Source of the DNA: a virus
Taxonomy: Duplodnaviria; Caudoviricetes
Reading direction: 5' to 3' (one strand)
Length of the DNA stretch: 40,636 bases
IMG/VR virus record: IMGVR_UViG_3300017937_000055
Location: 1-40,636 of that record
The notes beneath the pieces were generated by a model. The model was not told the origin of the DNA and did no database searches. It saw only the letters and a program-made list of their open reading frames with translations. The translations under genes and the position numbers were made by a program. Below are positions 7,353 to 40,636 of this stretch, piece after piece (positions within the stretch are counted from its first letter, which is position 1; each line of letters begins with the position of its first letter).

Positions 7353-7912
7353 GCAAGGAAGCGAGAGAATGGTTGAAACGCCAGCGAATTGCCGACGCCT
7401 CGCTTAAGGCGGTAGTCCGCGCAATCGCTTGGAGTGCCGATAAGGGCGGCGGCGAATGTCGCGCCGCGCAAAGCGACCTCGCCGAAGAGGCATCAATGAC
7501 AGACAGGGCAGTTCGTGCTGCGCTGGTCGTCCTTGAACGTCTGGAAATCGTCCAGCGCAAATCCCGCAGCAAGGGGAAATACGGCCGCACGACTGACTTG
7601 GTGGTTCTGGCCCTCGATCGCAATTTCGACGTGTCGAAGGCGTCAATCCGGGCTGTCCGAAGGAGCCTTCGTCCGGCTCTGCAACCGGAACCGCGTTCCG
7701 GTAACGAGAAAATCTGCAACCGGAACCGCGTTCCTCTGCAACCGGAACCGCGTTCCGGGGAATATAACCCGGTTGACCCAGAACCGCCTTATCAGGAAGG
7801 GAACAGTACTGAGGTTGAAGGTTATGCTCGGCATTGGGGAGAGGCACACCCCCATGACAGGGACACCCCTACTGCCAAGGTGATCACGCTGCCCGTGCGA
7901 GGTGCGGCATGA
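7349..7912 (+). CDS. HTH replication initiator (lambda O-like)
   Basis: ATGA-coupled start; QSDLAEEASMTDRAVRAALVVLE winged HTH; contains iterons. Confidence 0.75.
   Translation: MSKEAREWLKRQRIADASLKAVVRAIAWSADKGGGECRAAQSDLAEEASMTDRAVRAALVVLERLEIVQRKSRSKGKYGRTTDLVVLALDRNFDVSKASIRAVRRSLRPALQPEPRSGNEKICNRNRVPLQPEPRSGEYNPVDPEPPYQEGNSTEVEGYARHWGEAHPHDRDTPTAKVITLPVRGAA
7678..7756 (+). repeat. Three exact 22-bp iterons, putative replication origin
   Basis: TCTGCAACCGGAACCGCGTTCC at 7678-7699, 7713-7734 and 7735-7756, each with dyad GGAAC-CGC-GTTCC. Confidence 0.8.
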
Positions 7913-9415
7913 CCCTGTGGCCTCACCAAGCGACCGCCATCGACCTGATCTGGCAATCCATGGCAACGGGCCATCGCCGTCCGGTCCTGATGATGGCGAC
8001 CGGAGCCGGCAAGACGAAAACCGCCGCTGCGATCATCAAGCGGGCTCTGGCGAAGGGCAAGCGGGTTGTGTTCGTCGTTCCCGCGCTGGAGCTGATCGAC
8101 CAAACGATCAAGGCCTTCCGCAAGGAGGGCATTCTCGAGATCGGCGTCATCCAGGCCAATCATCCCGAAACCGATCCGTCTCGCTCGGTTCAGGTCGCCA
8201 GCGCACAGACATTGGTGCGGCGGGCATTCCCCGAAACCGATCTCGTGATTGTCGATGAGGCTCACCGGGTGCAGCGCCGGATTTTCGAGTGGATGAAGCT
8301 CTGCCCGAAACTGCCGTTCATCGGGTTGAGCGCCACGCCGTGGACCAAGGGTCTCGGCAAGCACTATGACGATCTGATCATCGGCGCGACGACGAAGCAG
8401 CTGATCTCGATGATCAACCCCGATACCGGCAGGACATACCTCTCGCCGTTCCGGGTTTTCGCGCCAAGCCATCCCGACCTGACAGGGGTCAGCACCGTCG
8501 CCGGTGATTACCACGAGGGGCAGTTGGCCGACGCCATGGGACAAGCCGCAGATCACGGCTGATGTGGTCTCGACCTGGCTGAAGCTCGGCGAAAACCGGC
8601 CGACTCTTTGCTTCGCCGTCAACAGAGCGCATGCCCGCAGCCTGGAACGGGATTTTCGTCAGGCAGGCGTCGGGGTCGGTTATGTCGATGGCAACACCGA
8701 TCGTGATGAGCGGCAAGCGATCCGGGAAGCGTTCGAACGCGGCGACATCAAGGTGGTCGTCAATGTCGGCGTGTTGACGACGGGCGTCGATTGGGATGTG
8801 CGCTGCCTGATCCTGGCGCGGCCGACCAAATCGGAAATGCTCTACGTCCAGATCATCGGACGTGGCCTTCGCTCAGCGCCGGGCAAGCAGGATTGCGTGA
8901 TCCTCGACCATTCCGACACGACGCTGAACCTCGGCTTCGTGACGGATATCCATCATGAGCGGCTGAGCGACGGGACAGAGCGCAAAGCTTCCATCAGCAA
9001 GCGGCGCGAGCGCCCGACGCCTCTGCCGAAGGAATGCCCGTCTTGTCATCACGTGAAGCCGATCGGCGTCCATAAATGCCCGGCCTGCGGCTTCGCACCG
9101 CACCGGGTGCAGGATGTACATACCGCTCAAGGGGAACTCGCCCATCTCGGCGGCAAGCAGCTCAGGGCCGATATGGAAACCAAGAGGAAATGGTTCGCCA
9201 TGCTGCTGTGGTACGAGGAGGAAAAGCAGTACCGGCACGGTTGGGCCGCGAACAAATATCGGGAGAAATTCGGCGTCTGGCCGAATGGCATGCACGTCAT
9301 GCCCGTCATGCCGGATGTCCAGGTGAACAACTGGATCAAATCCACGCAGATCAGGTGGATCAAGGGCCAGCAGAAGGCGAAGAAATTGGCGGAGGCCGCG
9401 CAGCATGCGGCATGA
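7909..9415 (+). pseudogene. SF2 DEAD/DEAH helicase with Zn ribbon, split by a 1-nt frameshift
   Basis: ATGAGKT, DEAH, SAT in 7909-8562; TTGVD, QIIGRGLR, CPSC..CPAC in 8504-9415; removing one G at 8538-8540 restores ...ADAMDKPQITAD... Confidence 0.8.
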
Positions 9416-34826: not shown

Positions 34827-35669
34827 ATGGCTGTCATCAACTTGCCCGATTGGGTCGGCGGAACGATCACGCTCACCGCTGGCCAGACCGGCTTTTCCGT
34901 CAGCGGCGTCGATCTCACGGTGATCGATGTCCAACCCGGCGATCAGATTTATCACACGACAACCGGCCGTTGGCTCATCATCGGGGCTGTCACCGGCACG
35001 ACGACGGGCGATCTCGCCTATGCCTGCCCGGCCGATCTGGCGGGAACCGGCCTGGCACTGCGCATCCGCTATCAGCCCGATGTGACCCGCATGCTGGCGG
35101 CGCTCCAGAAACTGCAGGCGCTCCGTGCCGGCGGCAATCTCGATGCCTTGGCCGGTCTGACCGGCGCTCCAGACACCGGATTCGCTTTCAACGGCGCCGG
35201 CACGATGTTTGAGTATGATTTGCCATCCATAGCGCGCGACTTTCTCGCCGCCGATTTCATGCCCGTCGAACAAGGCACCCACAAAATCAAAATTGATTGG
35301 AATTCTGCGGGTTATATGGAGAGCGACATCGACAATGGAGCTGCACTTCTCGGAAGAATCTGGGCCGATTTTGAGGCTGGTCGCAGCCTTTCCTCGCCCG
35401 CCGGCTATCAGAAGTTTCCCGGCGGCTTTGTCTTCCAGTGGACCTATCTGACGAACATCTCTGATGTTGCGTGGACGTTTCCCGTCGCGTTTCCGACCGA
35501 ATGCCTGGGTGCCAGCGCAATCGTTTCCAGAACGCTATGGACGGACGAGTCTCAGGCTTTCGTGCAGACCGACACCAAATCCGTCAACACGGTGAACATA
35601 AGGGTAAGGAACACAATTTCAGGTCTCACCGACCCGAGGAACGTTTCTGCTTTTGCATGGGGACATTAG
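34827..35669 (+). CDS. Tail fibre protein
   Basis: C-terminal GYQKFPGGFVFQW..FPVAFP..AWGH fibre tip pattern. Confidence 0.8.
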   Translation: MAVINLPDWVGGTITLTAGQTGFSVSGVDLTVIDVQPGDQIYHTTTGRWLIIGAVTGTTTGDLAYACPADLAGTGLALRIRYQPDVTRMLAALQKLQALRAGGNLDALAGLTGAPDTGFAFNGAGTMFEYDLPSIARDFLAADFMPVEQGTHKIKIDWNSAGYMESDIDNGAALLGRIWADFEAGRSLSSPAGYQKFPGGFVFQWTYLTNISDVAWTFPVAFPTECLGASAIVSRTLWTDESQAFVQTDTKSVNTVNIRVRNTISGLTDPRNVSAFAWGH

Positions 35670-35673
35670 AGCA

Positions 35674-36234
35674 ATGCGATACGCGACTTTCGACGCCAAC
35701 GGCATGCCGACCGGCTTCTATTCCGACGACGTGCACGGGCCGCGATTATTGCCGGTTTACGGACCTATTCCAGAGCCGACAACCGACGATCCCAACCCCG
35801 TCGCGCCCATCATTGGCACCAAGCCAAATCCAGCCTGCATGATCCCGGCCGGAGCCATCGAAATCACCGATGTTCAATGGCAGGAATTCCTTGCGAACCC
35901 AGGCCTGCGCAAATGGCAGAACGGCCAACTGGTCGAATATACGCCGCCACCGCCAGTGCCGACAGAGGCCGACTATGGCCGCGCGGTCCAGATCATGCTC
36001 GATGCTAAGGCTCAGGAGCGGAGCTACGACAGCATCGCGACTGCCGTCAGCTACAGGGACGATCCGAACGCGACCTATTCTGCCGAGGGGGCCGCCCTGT
36101 TCAACTGGCGCTCAGCGGTCTGGACCTATGTCTATCAGCAGCTCGCGGCGGTGCAGGCCGGGACGCGTGCGCAGCCGGCGGTGGCGGATTTCGTGACGGA
36201 GGTGGGGACGCAGTGTCCGTTTGAATGGCCGTAA
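35674..36234 (+). CDS. Tail fibre assembly protein
   Basis: GFYSDDVHG..IPAGAIEIT..W; LDAKAQERSYDSI..WRSAVW. Confidence 0.75.
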   Translation: MRYATFDANGMPTGFYSDDVHGPRLLPVYGPIPEPTTDDPNPVAPIIGTKPNPACMIPAGAIEITDVQWQEFLANPGLRKWQNGQLVEYTPPPPVPTEADYGRAVQIMLDAKAQERSYDSIATAVSYRDDPNATYSAEGAALFNWRSAVWTYVYQQLAAVQAGTRAQPAVADFVTEVGTQCPFEWP

Positions 36235-36236
36235 TG

Positions 36237-36271
36237 AAAATGGCCGCTCTCTCCGAGGTAAGAGAGCGGCC
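36237..36271 (-). terminator. Perfect 11-bp hairpin, terminator-like (possibly bidirectional)
   Basis: GGCCGCTCTCT-N8-AGAGAGCGGCC, preceded by AAAAT on the plus strand. Confidence 0.6.
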
Positions 36272-36364
36272 GCCGCTGCTGGAATGGCGGGCCGCGTTGC
36301 TGGGGTGAACGGGAATGATGCGGCCTGCGTGGCACGAACCACGACGCAATCGATTGGTTCCAAT

Positions 36365-36445
36365 AAAAAATGCCGGCGGTCGGAGGTTGGTGCGTCCTCA
36401 GAGGGTGACCGCCGGCGTCCACCCGTGCGTATCGAGTGTGGACTG
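36365..36445 (-). ncRNA. Putative sRNA unit A
   Basis: AUACGC-loop hairpin, then 10-bp stem with a 25-nt loop and U6; two TTGACG upstream. Confidence 0.55.
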
Positions 36446-36542
36446 ATTTTCTGCTGCGTCCGTCAATGCGTCAATTGCCGTTCTCTTCATCACAAAGGAT
36501 GACGGGCTGGACCTCCCGTCCAAATGCGCTGTGCGGAAGAGG

Positions 36543-36620
36543 AAAAACGCCGGCGGCGCAGGGCAAACTTGGGGGCTTGTCGGCCGCCGGCGGTGCACCC
36601 GGGCGTATTCAGGTGCGACT
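36543..36620 (-). ncRNA. Putative sRNA unit B (paralog of A)
   Basis: AUACGC-loop hairpin, then 10-bp stem with a different 25-nt loop and U5; two TTGACG upstream. Confidence 0.55.
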
Positions 36621-36694
36621 TGAGCTTCAGCCCCGTCAAAAATCGCGTCAATTAAAATTTATAATTCCAACACTCTGACATCAAAGGTGATCCC

Positions 36695-37381
36695 ATGGAC
36701 CTCTCGTTCAAGGGCGCTGTCGTGCGCCTGAGCGATACCGACCTGCCGCGCATCGGATACGGGATCGGGGTAGGCGAGGACGAAATTCATGCCTTCCTCG
36801 ATGTCGAGACGGCCGGCGGCGGCTATGATGCTGAGGGCCGGCCGAAGATGCTGTTCGAGCCGCATGTGTTCTTCCGCAACCTTGCCGGCAAGGAACGGGA
36901 TCGTGCCGTTGCCGCCGGGATCGCATATGCCAGATGGGGCGAGAAGCCTTATCCGAAGGACAGCTATCCTCGTCTGGTGCAGGCCATCGCCATCAATGAG
37001 GCGGCGGCGCTCAAATCCGCATCGTGGGGCATCGGCCAGGTGTTGGGCGAGAACTTCGTTGCCGCCGGCTTTGCCTCACCGGAGGATATGGTTACGGCCA
37101 TGGTCAATGGCGGTGAGGCGGCGCAGCTTCAGGCGGCCGTGAACTTCATCAAGGCCGAGCATCTCGACGATGAGCTGCGCAACCATCAATGGGCGGCCTT
37201 CGCGCGCGGCTACAACGGCCCCGGATACGCGAAGAACGGCTATGACAAGAAACTCGCCGCCCGCTTCGCCTGGTGGCAGGGCAAGCCCGACACGCCATGG
37301 TCACCGCCCAGCGCGGCCGATCTCGACGCGGCGGCGAAGGCGAGCATCTGCACGAGCTGCGGTAAGGCGCTGGCTGTATGA
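36695..37381 (+). CDS. Endolysin, DUF3380-type N-acetylmuramidase
   Basis: VET..G, LFEPHVF, SASWGIGQVLGEN, FARGYNGPGY. Confidence 0.9.
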   Translation: MDLSFKGAVVRLSDTDLPRIGYGIGVGEDEIHAFLDVETAGGGYDAEGRPKMLFEPHVFFRNLAGKERDRAVAAGIAYARWGEKPYPKDSYPRLVQAIAINEAAALKSASWGIGQVLGENFVAAGFASPEDMVTAMVNGGEAAQLQAAVNFIKAEHLDDELRNHQWAAFARGYNGPGYAKNGYDKKLAARFAWWQGKPDTPWSPPSAADLDAAAKASICTSCGKALAV

Positions 37382-37386
37382 GCGAA

Positions 37387-37794
37387 TTAAGACACGCCCA
37401 ACAGGTTCGAAAGCTCGCCAATCAGTTCGTCTTTAGAGGGCTCGAAGAGCGAATCGAGAATTGATCTCATGCTTTTTCGAGCAATGATCTCATTGACCTT
37501 TTCGGTTGGTATGATCGGGTCAAACTGACATCGCACCACATGGTCATCGCGCGCCACCAGGTAGCACCCGATCAGTTCCGCGGGTATATCCGCGTCAAAC
37601 TGCATGTAGAAAAAATCTGGAACGGTTTTCGTCATTCCAAGATCGATGGAAGCCCCGTCCTCCGATATAGTCTGCAACGGGAACGTGGCCGAATGCACTT
37701 CGCGAATTCCTCGTGTGGGATAGATCAACTGCACCAGGAAATTCACCTCACGTCTAGGCCATTTCCGTCTTTCAACTCGCGTCGCCCGTGCCAT
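37387..37794 (-). CDS. PilZ-domain protein (moron)
   Basis: ERRKWPR (RxxxR) and TISEDGA (variant of D/NxSxxG). Confidence 0.75.
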   Translation of the reverse strand: MARATRVERRKWPRREVNFLVQLIYPTRGIREVHSATFPLQTISEDGASIDLGMTKTVPDFFYMQFDADIPAELIGCYLVARDDHVVRCQFDPIIPTEKVNEIIARKSMRSILDSLFEPSKDELIGELSNLLGVS

Positions 37795-38061
37795 GTGGGA
37801 AGTCCTTATTTACTGCTTTTTTTACCAGAGTGTCCCGAATACATTTCAGGTGCGTTTATAATACTGGCTGCATTTTAACGACCAAGACATCAAACTGCTG
37901 AAGATCAGCAGCTCGTCGCTTCACCTGCGCATTCCGCGCCCTGATCTCAAACAGGAAGCTCCCTACGCGCATGCTGCTTTTCGCGGCCTGAACCTTTTTG
38001 CACTTTCTGCAAAGATCCCGCGCGCGCCGGGTCAGCGCGTAATCTCAAAAGGAAAATCCCC

Positions 38062-38445
38062 ATGAAACGACTGTTCGCGAGCCTCGCGCTCGCCACGGTG
38101 CTGCTTGTCCCTGCCGGATGCGCAAAGCTCACCGAAATCCTCAATACACCGGTTCCCGCCGGAACGCTGGAGGGGCTTGTCACGACCGCCAACGCAGCGA
38201 TCACGACTGCGGACGGCTATATCGCCTATTGCATGCCGAATCCGGCACCGGCCGGTTGCGACGACAGCTTTATCCAGAACCAAGTCTTTCCGGATGTCGA
38301 AAAGCTGAAATCGGCCCGGAACAACGCGCAGTCATGGATAAAGGCCAACAACGGCAAAACGCTGGCTCCGGCCACGATCTACGATGCGCTGAACACAGCC
38401 CTCAACACCGTCAAGAACCTTGGACTCGCAGGAGCGAAGAAATGA
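38062..38445 (+). CDS. Lipoprotein of the lysis module (possible o-spanin role)
   Basis: Signal peptide ending LLVPAG-C; AAGGA RBS. Confidence 0.6.
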   Translation: MKRLFASLALATVLLVPAGCAKLTEILNTPVPAGTLEGLVTTANAAITTADGYIAYCMPNPAPAGCDDSFIQNQVFPDVEKLKSARNNAQSWIKANNGKTLAPATIYDALNTALNTVKNLGLAGAKK

Positions 38446-39709: not shown

Positions 39710-40636
39710 TCACTTCTTTCCCGGCAATGCCTTCGGCTTAAAGGCTTCGATTGCCGCGGCGGCTTGTTTAGCGGCTATCTGGCCTTGGCTGACCTTCGTG
39801 TTCAGATATTTTGGAAGCCCGACAGTCAGATACGTTTTCCTTAGCCACTTTCGAAATTCGCCCAAGGCGTCGTCTGGGTAGCAATATGCGGGCTGAGGGT
39901 TGGAAAGAGCCTGGGGGAAGTACGTAGGATAATTGTGATCATATTGGCGGCGTTCTCCGTAGATTATCTCCAGGCTGTTTTCCTTCCAATATTTTGCCCA
40001 TGCGGAGCCGACGCTGATGTCCGGGATGAATTTATTCCCTAAATTCGCACCCTGCCGGATCATAGTCACTAAGACCTCCGCAATTTCCTTGAATACGGAG
40101 AAGTAGCCATCCGGAACAGTGTGGTAGGACAGGGACACGCGATCGTGAAACTGGCGCCATGCGATATCGACGGCACCTGTTGGATTGTATCCGACTTGGG
40201 AATAGATGAAGTCTTGGAAGCCTTTACGGGCAAGAGTCCGATAACTTTTCAACGCTTGGGCTTGGTTCGCCGTATTCGCTTCGAATGCATAGTATTCGAG
40301 GATCGCCATACAGACGACATCCGGAACAATGTGCTGAATGACCCCATCTTTCTCGAGAGCCCAGAAGGCAACTGTGTCGTCTCCGCCATTTTCGCGGATG
40401 ATTTCGCGGATGCGCTTTTCCCGTGGTTTCAACGGTTCATCAAGCCACTGTGCTGTGATCCTCACAATCATGGAATGGTCTACGCCGCACATCAGAGCGA
40501 GGCCACGAAGGGTGAGATAAGGAGTGCCATTGCTCAGCACGCCCATTCCGACGCCGTCGCGCTCTGTTTCAAGTACGATCGAAAAGTCGAACTGGCCCTG
40601 TGATGAGGCGGTGCTCGGGAGATTGTCGTTTGACAT
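39710..40636 (-). CDS. bstA: BstA-family abortive-infection phage defence protein
   Basis: 308 aa; MGVL.NGTPYLTLRGLA..CG, PDVVCMAILEYYA, YFSVFKEIA, SVG..W.KYW, YP..ALGEFRKWL match my recollection of Salmonella BTP1 BstA; position at prophage end after lysis genes. Confidence 0.85.
   Translation of the reverse strand: MSNDNLPSTASSQGQFDFSIVLETERDGVGMGVLSNGTPYLTLRGLALMCGVDHSMIVRITAQWLDEPLKPREKRIREIIRENGGDDTVAFWALEKDGVIQHIVPDVVCMAILEYYAFEANTANQAQALKSYRTLARKGFQDFIYSQVGYNPTGAVDIAWRQFHDRVSLSYHTVPDGYFSVFKEIAEVLVTMIRQGANLGNKFIPDISVGSAWAKYWKENSLEIIYGERRQYDHNYPTYFPQALSNPQPAYCYPDDALGEFRKWLRKTYLTVGLPKYLNTKVSQGQIAAKQAAAAIEAFKPKALPGKK

What the first reader, a model, noticed from the sequence alone, without database searches (positions are those of the whole stretch)
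36365..36652. Paired sRNA-like units with conserved scaffold and different 25-nt loops
Seen on the minus strand, both units read TTGACGC..TTGACGG, then a hairpin with loop AUACGC and 3' arm CGGGUG (G:U pairs fit this strand), then a 10-bp GCCGGCGG stem closing exactly 25 nt, then a U tract. The loops are unrelated: ACCCUCUGAGGACGCACCAACCUCC (36406-36382) and CGACAAGCCCCCAAGUUUGCCCUGC (36582-36558). Both are C-rich and one carries anti-SD CCUCC. Inference: a modular guide-like sRNA family with a constant handle and variable targeting loop, expressed in the lysogen antisense to the late operon. I found no obvious in-window target and do not recognise the family.
Basis: partly seen in the sequence, partly recalled or inferred. 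Interest (0 to 1): 0.8.

Follow-up and report, generated by a model that had tools for sequence, protein, structure and literature searches.

The report
Duplicated prophage small-RNA gene pair
Just before its lysis gene, this temperate phage of a likely rhizobia-type bacterium carries two copies of a short, highly structured sequence made by a local duplication; they are predicted to be small regulatory RNAs that would pair with host messages through their different loops, a new family of a known kind rather than a programmable guide system.

Summary
Two ~75-nt units on the minus strand each have a TTGACG-17-nt promoter motif, a small hairpin with loop AUACGC, and a 10-bp stem with a U tract (fold z about -4). 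They are a tandem duplication: the repeat also covers a decayed copy of the endolysin's first nine codons (21 of 27 nt identical). Stems keep all 15 pairs, while the long loops are no more alike than shuffles. A third, unrelated unit with a stress-sigma-like promoter follows. There is no Rfam match and no true homologue in any search; only ~97%-identical relatives exist, and their loops are unchanged. The loops show no protospacer-like match and no in-phage target, and no effector gene is adjacent. Best reading: sibling trans-acting sRNAs in a lysis-proximal moron slot, with fixed, different C-rich seeds, working like the EHEC prophage anti-sRNAs/Pas RNAs but not members of those families. A programmable guide is not supported. 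Transcription and targets are untested.

The parts
36623..36651 (-). Unit A promoter motif, TTGACG-N17-GAAGCT (sigma70-like, weak -10)
   Evidence: Sequence; both hexamers unchanged in X2, X8, X10 while five spacer letters differ
36543..36616 (-). Unit A predicted sRNA (~74 nt): 7-bp hairpin with loop AAUACGCC, 10-bp stem enclosing 25 nt with exposed CCCCAA, U tract
   Evidence: Fold z -4.25; unpaired probabilities
36507..36533 (+). Decayed copy of endolysin codons 1-9 (start codon lost), marking the tandem duplication
   Evidence: 21 of 27 nt identical to 36695-36721; LDLPSKCAV against MDLSFKGAV
36446..36474 (-). Unit B promoter motif, TTGACG-N17-GAAAAT
   Evidence: Only promoter-like site in 35500-38200, 9 of 12 matches; shuffles give 0.9 such sites, so weak on its own
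36365..36439 (-). Unit B predicted sRNA (~75 nt): 6-bp hairpin with loop AUACGCA, 10-bp stem enclosing 25 nt (exposed ACCCUCU and ACGCACCAA), U tract
   Evidence: Fold z -3.98
36337..36361 (-). GGAAC-N18-TT motif, like the general-stress (EcfG/RpoE2) promoter (consensus recalled), in front of unit C
   Evidence: Only match in the window; 1.79 expected by chance, so weak on its own
36237..36330 (-). Unit C, a third unrelated sRNA candidate: 6-bp stem with open 24-nt C-rich loop, then 12-bp hairpin (36271-36242) and short T tract
   Evidence: Fold z -3.80, 0 of 200 shuffles; terminator scan; the longer stretch folds better on the plus strand
35677..36234 (+). Upstream late gene after the tail fibre (probable tail-fibre assembly protein; no Pfam or PHROG hit)
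   Evidence: ORF list; 14 phage relatives
36695..37381 (+). Endolysin (N-acetylmuramidase PF11860), divergent from the unit A promoter

Best explanation
Two copies of a ~180-nt segment lie in tandem between the tail genes and the endolysin, and each likely encodes a ~75-nt small RNA made from its own promoter against the late operon, which would act in trans by pairing the C-rich part of its long loop with G-rich stretches of host mRNAs. Shown: the duplication, the two-hairpin fold with minus-strand U tracts, conserved stems, unrelated loops, loops unchanged in close relatives. Inferred: transcription in the lysogen by host sigma70; termination at the long stem; Hfq-type binding at the U tail; after duplication the copies kept the scaffold and came to carry different fixed seeds (CCCCAA in A; CCCUCU, CACCAA or CCUCC in B), so that they would repress different target sets.
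For: Anatomy of promoter motif, hairpins and U tract twice, folding far above shuffles. U tracts and G:U pairs favour the minus strand; unit A folds at z -4.25 on minus against -1.46 on plus. The only ORFs over the units are 30-95 aa, overlapping on both strands, and relatives carry single-base indels at 36488, 36505 and 36543. In relatives 1 of 17 variant sites falls in the RNA bodies, which are 36% of the stretch (p 0.005 by site). Loops align no better than shuffles (91% of shuffles as good) while the dead endolysin remnant is 21/27 identical (Fisher p 0.0009), which suggests loop change beyond drift. The slot is a moron slot: the 89%-terminase relative G001 has a minus-strand P63C gene there, and two other phage loci hold unrelated minus-strand C-rich hairpin RNA candidates there (L016/L219, L368). 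Precedent: prophage moron sRNAs with conserved and variable parts (PMC4104026), and C-rich loop seeds in alphaproteobacterial sRNAs (PMC8844928, PMC5869019, PMC12559287).
Against: No expression evidence: the RNA libraries are contigs that also span the endolysin and tail genes and give no strand. The -10 motifs are poor. No target was found and the host genome is not available. The anti-SD CCUCC of B is predicted mostly paired. The constraint signal vanishes if variants are counted as six clusters (p 0.30), and loop identity (8/27) does not differ from that of the promoter spacer (8/17; p 0.34). Unit B folds nearly as well on the plus strand (z -3.20). In known siblings (AbcR1/2, SisA-D) the seed is the conserved unpaired part, which here would be AUACGC. 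Only two sequences, so no covariation test passed.
Confidence: 0.5

Rival explanations
1. The units are sRNAs, but the working part is the conserved hairpin loop AUACGC (shared seed or protein-binding site); the long loop is only the unconstrained top of the terminator, so A and B are redundant siblings.
For: Loop core plus 3' arm is 12 of 13 identical between copies and fully unpaired in the loop; known siblings use their conserved single-stranded motif (PMC8844928, PMC12559287); loop divergence is not different from the promoter spacer (p 0.34).
Against: Long loops are unchanged in relatives whose spacers vary; both stay C-rich and 25-27 nt, long for a plain terminator; a 6-7-nt loop is a short seed.
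Confidence: 0.2
2. The RNAs act in cis: convergent transcription and perfect pairing with the late mRNA just upstream of the endolysin cut or dampen the transcript entering the lysis cassette.
For: Position and orientation between tail and lysis genes; no plus-strand U-tract terminator at the long stems, so the late transcript would pass through; loop sequence would not matter, which fits unrelated loops.
Against: The RNAs do not overlap the endolysin ribosome-binding site (promoter is divergent, RNA starts ~80 nt away); most endolysin loci lack such a cassette (1 of 139); loops appear conserved in relatives.
Confidence: 0.12
3. No functional RNA: a minus-strand terminator insulating the late operon was duplicated with its flanks and is decaying.
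For: The duplication is proven by the dead endolysin start; weak -10 motifs; no homologue anywhere; GCCGGCGG-type terminators with long loops occur in unrelated phages and genomes.
Against: Both copies keep the -35, the 17-nt spacing, the first hairpin and all 15 pairs although the remnant has 6 changes in 27 nt; variants in relatives mostly avoid the bodies.
Confidence: 0.1
4. Programmable guide-like RNA: the AUACGC hairpin and long stem are a handle for a protein effector encoded elsewhere, and the ~25-nt insert is an exchangeable targeting sequence.
For: Constant scaffold with inserts of similar length and random-level identity, beside an 78%-identical neutral remnant.
Against: No third insert found; inserts invariant in relatives from up to three studies; no match better than E about 7-10 in 50,697 phages or 72,556 plasmids; no in-window complement above shuffles; inserts have internal helices; no effector next door.
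Confidence: 0.06
5. CRISPR-repeat mimic (Racr): hairpin 1 imitates a type I-C repeat.
For: Promoter-driven intergenic phage RNA, as for solitary repeat units (PMC10651486); unit A starts GTCGCACC...CGGGTGC, loosely like type I-C repeats (recalled).
Against: No Rfam match at E up to 10; the recalled 3' GAAAC-type end is absent; the GTC start of A and the GTGGA of B are changed in relatives (36618, 36419).
Confidence: 0.02

Closest known systems
EHEC prophage anti-sRNAs AgvB/AsxR/EcOnc03 (Tree et al. 2014, PMC4104026; passages and section 13 read)
   Same: Short prophage sRNA genes in a late-region moron slot, homologous copies with a conserved part and a variable part that sets the partner.
   Different: There 51-60 nt, variable 14-18 nt at the 5' end, copies in different prophages downstream of PR', partners are host sRNAs. 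Here ~75 nt, variable part inside the terminator stem, tandem copies in one phage, alphaproteobacterial host, no sequence likeness, no partner known.
Pas sRNAs of EPEC prophages (Zhu et al. 2026, 10.64898/2026.05.13.724894; abstract, introduction and passages read)
   Same: Intergenic prophage sRNAs ending in a stem-loop and U tract; related genes with different seeds; narrow distribution.
   Different: The paper finds multiple pasA/pasD copies far apart and not made by tandem duplication; here the duplication is local and dated by a gene remnant. Restricted to Escherichia/Shigella.
AbcR1/AbcR2 (alpha-r15) of Sinorhizobium meliloti (PMC8844928; passages read)
   Same: Tandem homologous sRNAs in Rhizobiales, C-rich motifs in loops pairing with ribosome-binding sites.
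   Different: 114-121 nt, chromosomal, identical seeds CUCCUCCC and UUCCCCUC but different promoters; here similar promoters, different loops, neither motif present.
alpha-r8 siblings SisA-D/MmgR (PMC12559287; passages read) and GsrN (PMC5869019; passages read)
   Same: Alphaproteobacterial sRNAs with hairpin, C-rich seed and terminator; GsrN-like RNAs follow an EcfG promoter, as unit C may.
   Different: The alpha-r8 10-mer UUUCCUCCCU is absent; GsrN-like genes sit near the phyR/ecfG locus, not in a phage.

Membership tests
Any Rfam family (release 15) | Covariance-model match | tested here: not met
   35000-38000 at E up to 10: one match, mir-1181 inside the endolysin, 18.4 bits against 95
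EHEC-type prophage anti-sRNA | Intergenic in a late-region moron slot of a temperate phage, own terminator | tested here: met
EHEC-type prophage anti-sRNA | 51-60 nt with conserved 3' ~42 nt and variable 5' 14-18 nt | tested here: not met
   ~75 nt, conserved 5' hairpin, variable part within the 3' stem
EHEC-type prophage anti-sRNA | Hfq binding and pairing with a host sRNA | not testable with these tools
   Host genome not held; needs co-IP or RIL-seq
alpha-r15 (AbcR) | Motifs CUCCUCCC and UUCCCCUC shared by both siblings | tested here: not met
   Absent from both units
alpha-r8 (MmgR/Sis) | Single-stranded UUUCCUCCCU before the terminator | tested here: not met
   Absent
Trans-acting base-pairing sRNA (general kind) | Own promoter motif, structured body, intrinsic terminator | tested here: met
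   (motifs only)
Trans-acting base-pairing sRNA (general kind) | Discrete transcript detected | tested here: inconclusive
   RNA runs held only as contigs, no strand or ends
Trans-acting base-pairing sRNA (general kind) | Target pairing through an exposed seed | tested here: inconclusive
   No phage target above shuffles; host mRNAs not available
RNA guide of an effector (CRISPR, OMEGA, bridge, TIGR-like) | Targeting part varies among relatives and matches targets | tested here: not met
   Loops unchanged in relatives (these are ~97% identical, so power is low); no spacer-like hit
RNA guide of an effector (CRISPR, OMEGA, bridge, TIGR-like) | Adjacent nuclease, recombinase or RNA-binding effector gene | tested here: not met
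   Neighbours are tail and lysis genes; several small window proteins remain unannotated
Racr / solitary repeat unit | Sequence and structure match to a CRISPR repeat | tested here: inconclusive
   No Rfam hit; SRUFinder's repeat set was not available
Host repetitive palindrome | Many copies in host-clade chromosomes | tested here: not met
   Only short or coding chance hits in 400 family and 401 order genomes

The most novel reading that the evidence does not exclude
A phage RNA scaffold whose terminator stem displays an exchangeable ~25-nt targeting cassette, read by a dedicated protein that binds the AUACGC hairpin, so that phages gain new specificities by duplicating the unit and replacing the insert.
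Probability: 0.06. Interest if true: 0.85.

Novelty: new member of a known kind. Interest (0 to 1): 0.38.

Why it matters
Phage sRNAs are known mostly from enterobacterial and Vibrio phages; my paper searches found none described for the lysis-proximal slot of alphaproteobacterial prophages (open-access library only). This pair is a clean natural experiment: a duplication dated by a dead gene fragment, the same scaffold, and two different loops. A loop swap would show directly whether a terminator loop can be a modular seed and how sibling sRNAs gain new targets, and the scaffold could serve for synthetic sRNAs in rhizobia. Without transcripts, homologues or targets the interest stays moderate.

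Tried and rejected
Homologue searches that found none: pattern scans of viral contigs (0 hits; 5 hits, none with the second stem and U tract, one lying in an apparent retroelement region; 24 hits, none with hairpin 1); metagenome contigs (27 hits, 1 the source contig, 26 without the architecture); nhmmer and model R1 on 80 viral and 80 genome endolysin loci; R1 on 5, 151, 151 and 121 genomes (best 25-28 bits, coding or non-equivalent on inspection; self scores 126-131); R2 on 151 Mesorhizobium-genus genomes (33 with weak hits, best 31.7 bits, the 20 inspected mostly coding; only 30 of several hundred candidates per genome were scored); R2 on 50+50 phage records (best 23.5 bits); blastn on 400 of 401 genomes, phages and plasmids; patterns on 401 genomes (for the latter 20 genomes with a match, all chance on inspection). 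These genome samples overlap and are samples, so this is 'not found in those searched'. Both models rest on two sequences and are weak. Tail proteins gave no loci. An IS110-associated hairpin matches only the 3' arm of unit A and pairs differently: rejected as homologue. L350 and L368 share the outline (hairpin, GC stem, C-rich loop of about 25 nt) but not the AUACGC loop or promoter: analogues at most. Target scans of the window and of 33 start regions were no better than shuffles (some starts are first-start guesses). The twin-stem count (4 of 144 against 2 of 137) had a flaw that missed L016 and is not used; one row (stem 2 3' arm) was off by one base and is not used. PDB search of the PilZ-like ORF gave nothing. 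Repressor search did not name a host.

Full report
Setting. The window is a 40.6-kb temperate phage: integrase, antirepressor, repressor, terminase, portal, capsid, tape measure, tail fibres, an N-acetylmuramidase endolysin at 36695-37381 and a BstA-like gene. A capsid cluster member is named from a Rhizobiaceae MAG and the closest endolysins in genomes are from Methylobacterium, Mesorhizobium, Aureimonas and kin at up to 69% identity, so the host is likely in the Rhizobiales; it is not identified. The finding lies in the 460-nt gap between the last tail gene (ends 36234) and the endolysin.

Observation. Both units are present as described. Each has TTGACG, 17 nt, and a weak -10 (GAAGCT, GAAAAT), then a 6-7-bp hairpin with loop AUACGC, a 10-bp GC stem, and 5-6 U. 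The alphaproteobacterial sigma70 consensus is CTTGAC-N17-CTATAT (PMC8844928, passage) and its -10 is poorly conserved (PMC3616915, passage). The minus-strand folds have z -4.25 and -3.98; on the plus strand A gives -1.46 and B -3.20. A promoter+stem+T cassette was found three times before this endolysin and in 1 of 139 other distinct endolysin loci, with controls 1 of 139, 1 of 141 and 0 of 131. All 15 pairs are kept in both copies, one by a two-sided change, which two sequences cannot make significant. Between in-register pairs the inserts are 25 and 27 nt, and both hold a predicted inner helix, leaving CCCCAA (A) and ACCCUCU plus ACGCACCAA (B) exposed; most of B's CCUCC is predicted paired.

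Origin. The similarity runs past the RNA: promoter, spacer and a dead copy of the endolysin's first nine codons at 36507-36533 (21 of 27 nt identical, ATG lost, four of six changes non-synonymous). The pair is thus a tandem duplication of a ~180-nt segment, or an unequal crossover between related phages, which by itself explains the shared scaffold. The loops align no better than shuffles (91% as good). That is lower than the remnant (p 0.0009) but not lower than the promoter spacer, 8 of 17 (p 0.34), so replacement or selection in the loop is suggested, not shown.

Relatives. Near-identical phages occur in public runs. Of those laid, contigs of study P2 cover both units, P3 covers B and part of loop A, and P4 covers B with no difference. 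No change is listed in either long loop. Of 17 variant sites in 36316-36694, one lies in an RNA body, in the linker at 36419 (p 0.005 by site, 0.30 by cluster); a one-base insertion in B's stem seen in one contig at depth 2.2 was left out of that count. Five changes fall in A's promoter spacer while both hexamers are kept. These relatives are about 97% identical, so the test is weak. The RNA libraries are contigs that also span the endolysin and tail genes and show neither strand nor ends.

Wider homologues. None was found: no Rfam family; pattern scans of viral and metagenome contigs gave only the source contig and chance hits; two covariance models on endolysin loci, on samples of 121-151 Rhizobiales genomes and on 50+50 phage records gave 16-32 bits against 74-131 for the units themselves, and the hits inspected were coding or lacked the hairpin loop; blastn and patterns on about 400 genomes, phages and plasmids likewise. 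The slot itself is variable: G001 (89% terminase) has a minus-strand P63C gene there, and L016/L219 and L368 have unrelated minus-strand C-rich hairpin elements there. In the window a third unit follows B, with a GGAAC-N18-TT motif (consensus recalled; 1.79 expected by chance) and an open C-rich loop (z -3.80). RpoE2-dependent sRNAs are known in S. meliloti (PMC3616915, passage).

Targets. Neither loop pairs with the phage genome better than shuffles or with 33 start regions. Neither has a spacer-like match in phages or plasmids (best E about 7-10). Host mRNAs could not be tested because the host part of the source contig is not held.

Mechanism. Most likely (0.5) the two units are sibling trans-acting sRNAs made in the lysogen, terminated at the long stem, stabilised through the U tail, and pairing through different C-rich loop stretches with G-rich host mRNA regions. 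The duplication, structure and loop difference are shown; transcription, chaperone and targets are inferred from anatomy and precedent. Rivals: the conserved AUACGC loop is the working part (0.2); cis-antisense control of the late-to-lysis transcript (0.12); a decaying duplicated terminator (0.1); a programmable guide (0.06); a CRISPR-repeat mimic (0.02).

Comparison. It would work like the EHEC prophage moron sRNAs, which share a conserved part and differ in a partner-determining part (PMC4104026, passages and section 13), and like the Pas RNAs (10.64898/2026.05.13.724894, abstract, introduction and passages), but it fails their length, layout and sequence features. It resembles AbcR1/2, SisA-D and GsrN in host clade and C-rich loops (passages) but lacks their motifs. 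A review of phage sRNAs was read only in its first part of six (PMC12197685) and the Racr paper in passages (PMC10651486). Paper searches for such a family gave nothing relevant; supplements were not read. Earlier AI notes of this scan describe similar tandem sRNA slots in other prophages; they are leads, not support.

Verdict. Real feature; a new, so far lineage-restricted member of a known kind (prophage moron sRNAs), with an unusual layout in which the divergent part sits in the terminator loop. Interest 0.38.

Noticed in passing
window 36237-36361 (-): Third sRNA candidate (unit C) with a GGAAC-N18-TT motif and an open 24-nt C-rich loop; relatives X3/X4 carry about 11 inserted bases at 36351-36364, inside that motif's region.
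   Followed up: partly
L016:2640-2900 (-), same as L219 (Hansschlegelia MAG prophage): Unrelated pair in the same slot and strand: two TTGAC motifs, C-rich hairpins and a shared 10-bp GGCTCAGCGC stem with different loops; only the first has a U tract, the second precedes an ORF; no Rfam family.
   Followed up: partly
L368:3775-3915 (-): Phage tail-to-lysis slot with GGAAC-N18-TT and three C-rich hairpins (fold z -5.29), no Rfam family.
   Followed up: partly
L317, L319, L334, L337, L340 (about 1440-1750): Conserved non-coding element of Rhizobiaceae genomes with a long stem around a variable AT-rich loop; in L340 it precedes an IS110-family transposase fragment (PF02371); no Rfam match; possibly an IS110 end or bridge-RNA region.
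   Followed up: partly
L288, L290, L292 (about 1430-1560): Phage promoter-leader family in which CCACAAC near the 5' end could pair with GTTGTGG inside a long terminator hairpin (attenuator or pseudoknot-like); no Rfam match.
   Followed up: no
window 37387-37794 (-): Lower-GC (49%) moron ORF of 135 aa after the endolysin with RxxxR and DGA motifs recalling PilZ domains (motifs recalled); no Pfam, PHROG or PDB hit.
   Followed up: partly
window 39710-40636 (-): BstA-family abortive-infection gene (phrog_6287, E 1e-100) at the prophage end.
   Followed up: no
window 7909-9415 (+): The helicase appears split over two frames (7909-8562 and 8504-9415), by frameshift or assembly error.
   Followed up: no
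   Followed up: no
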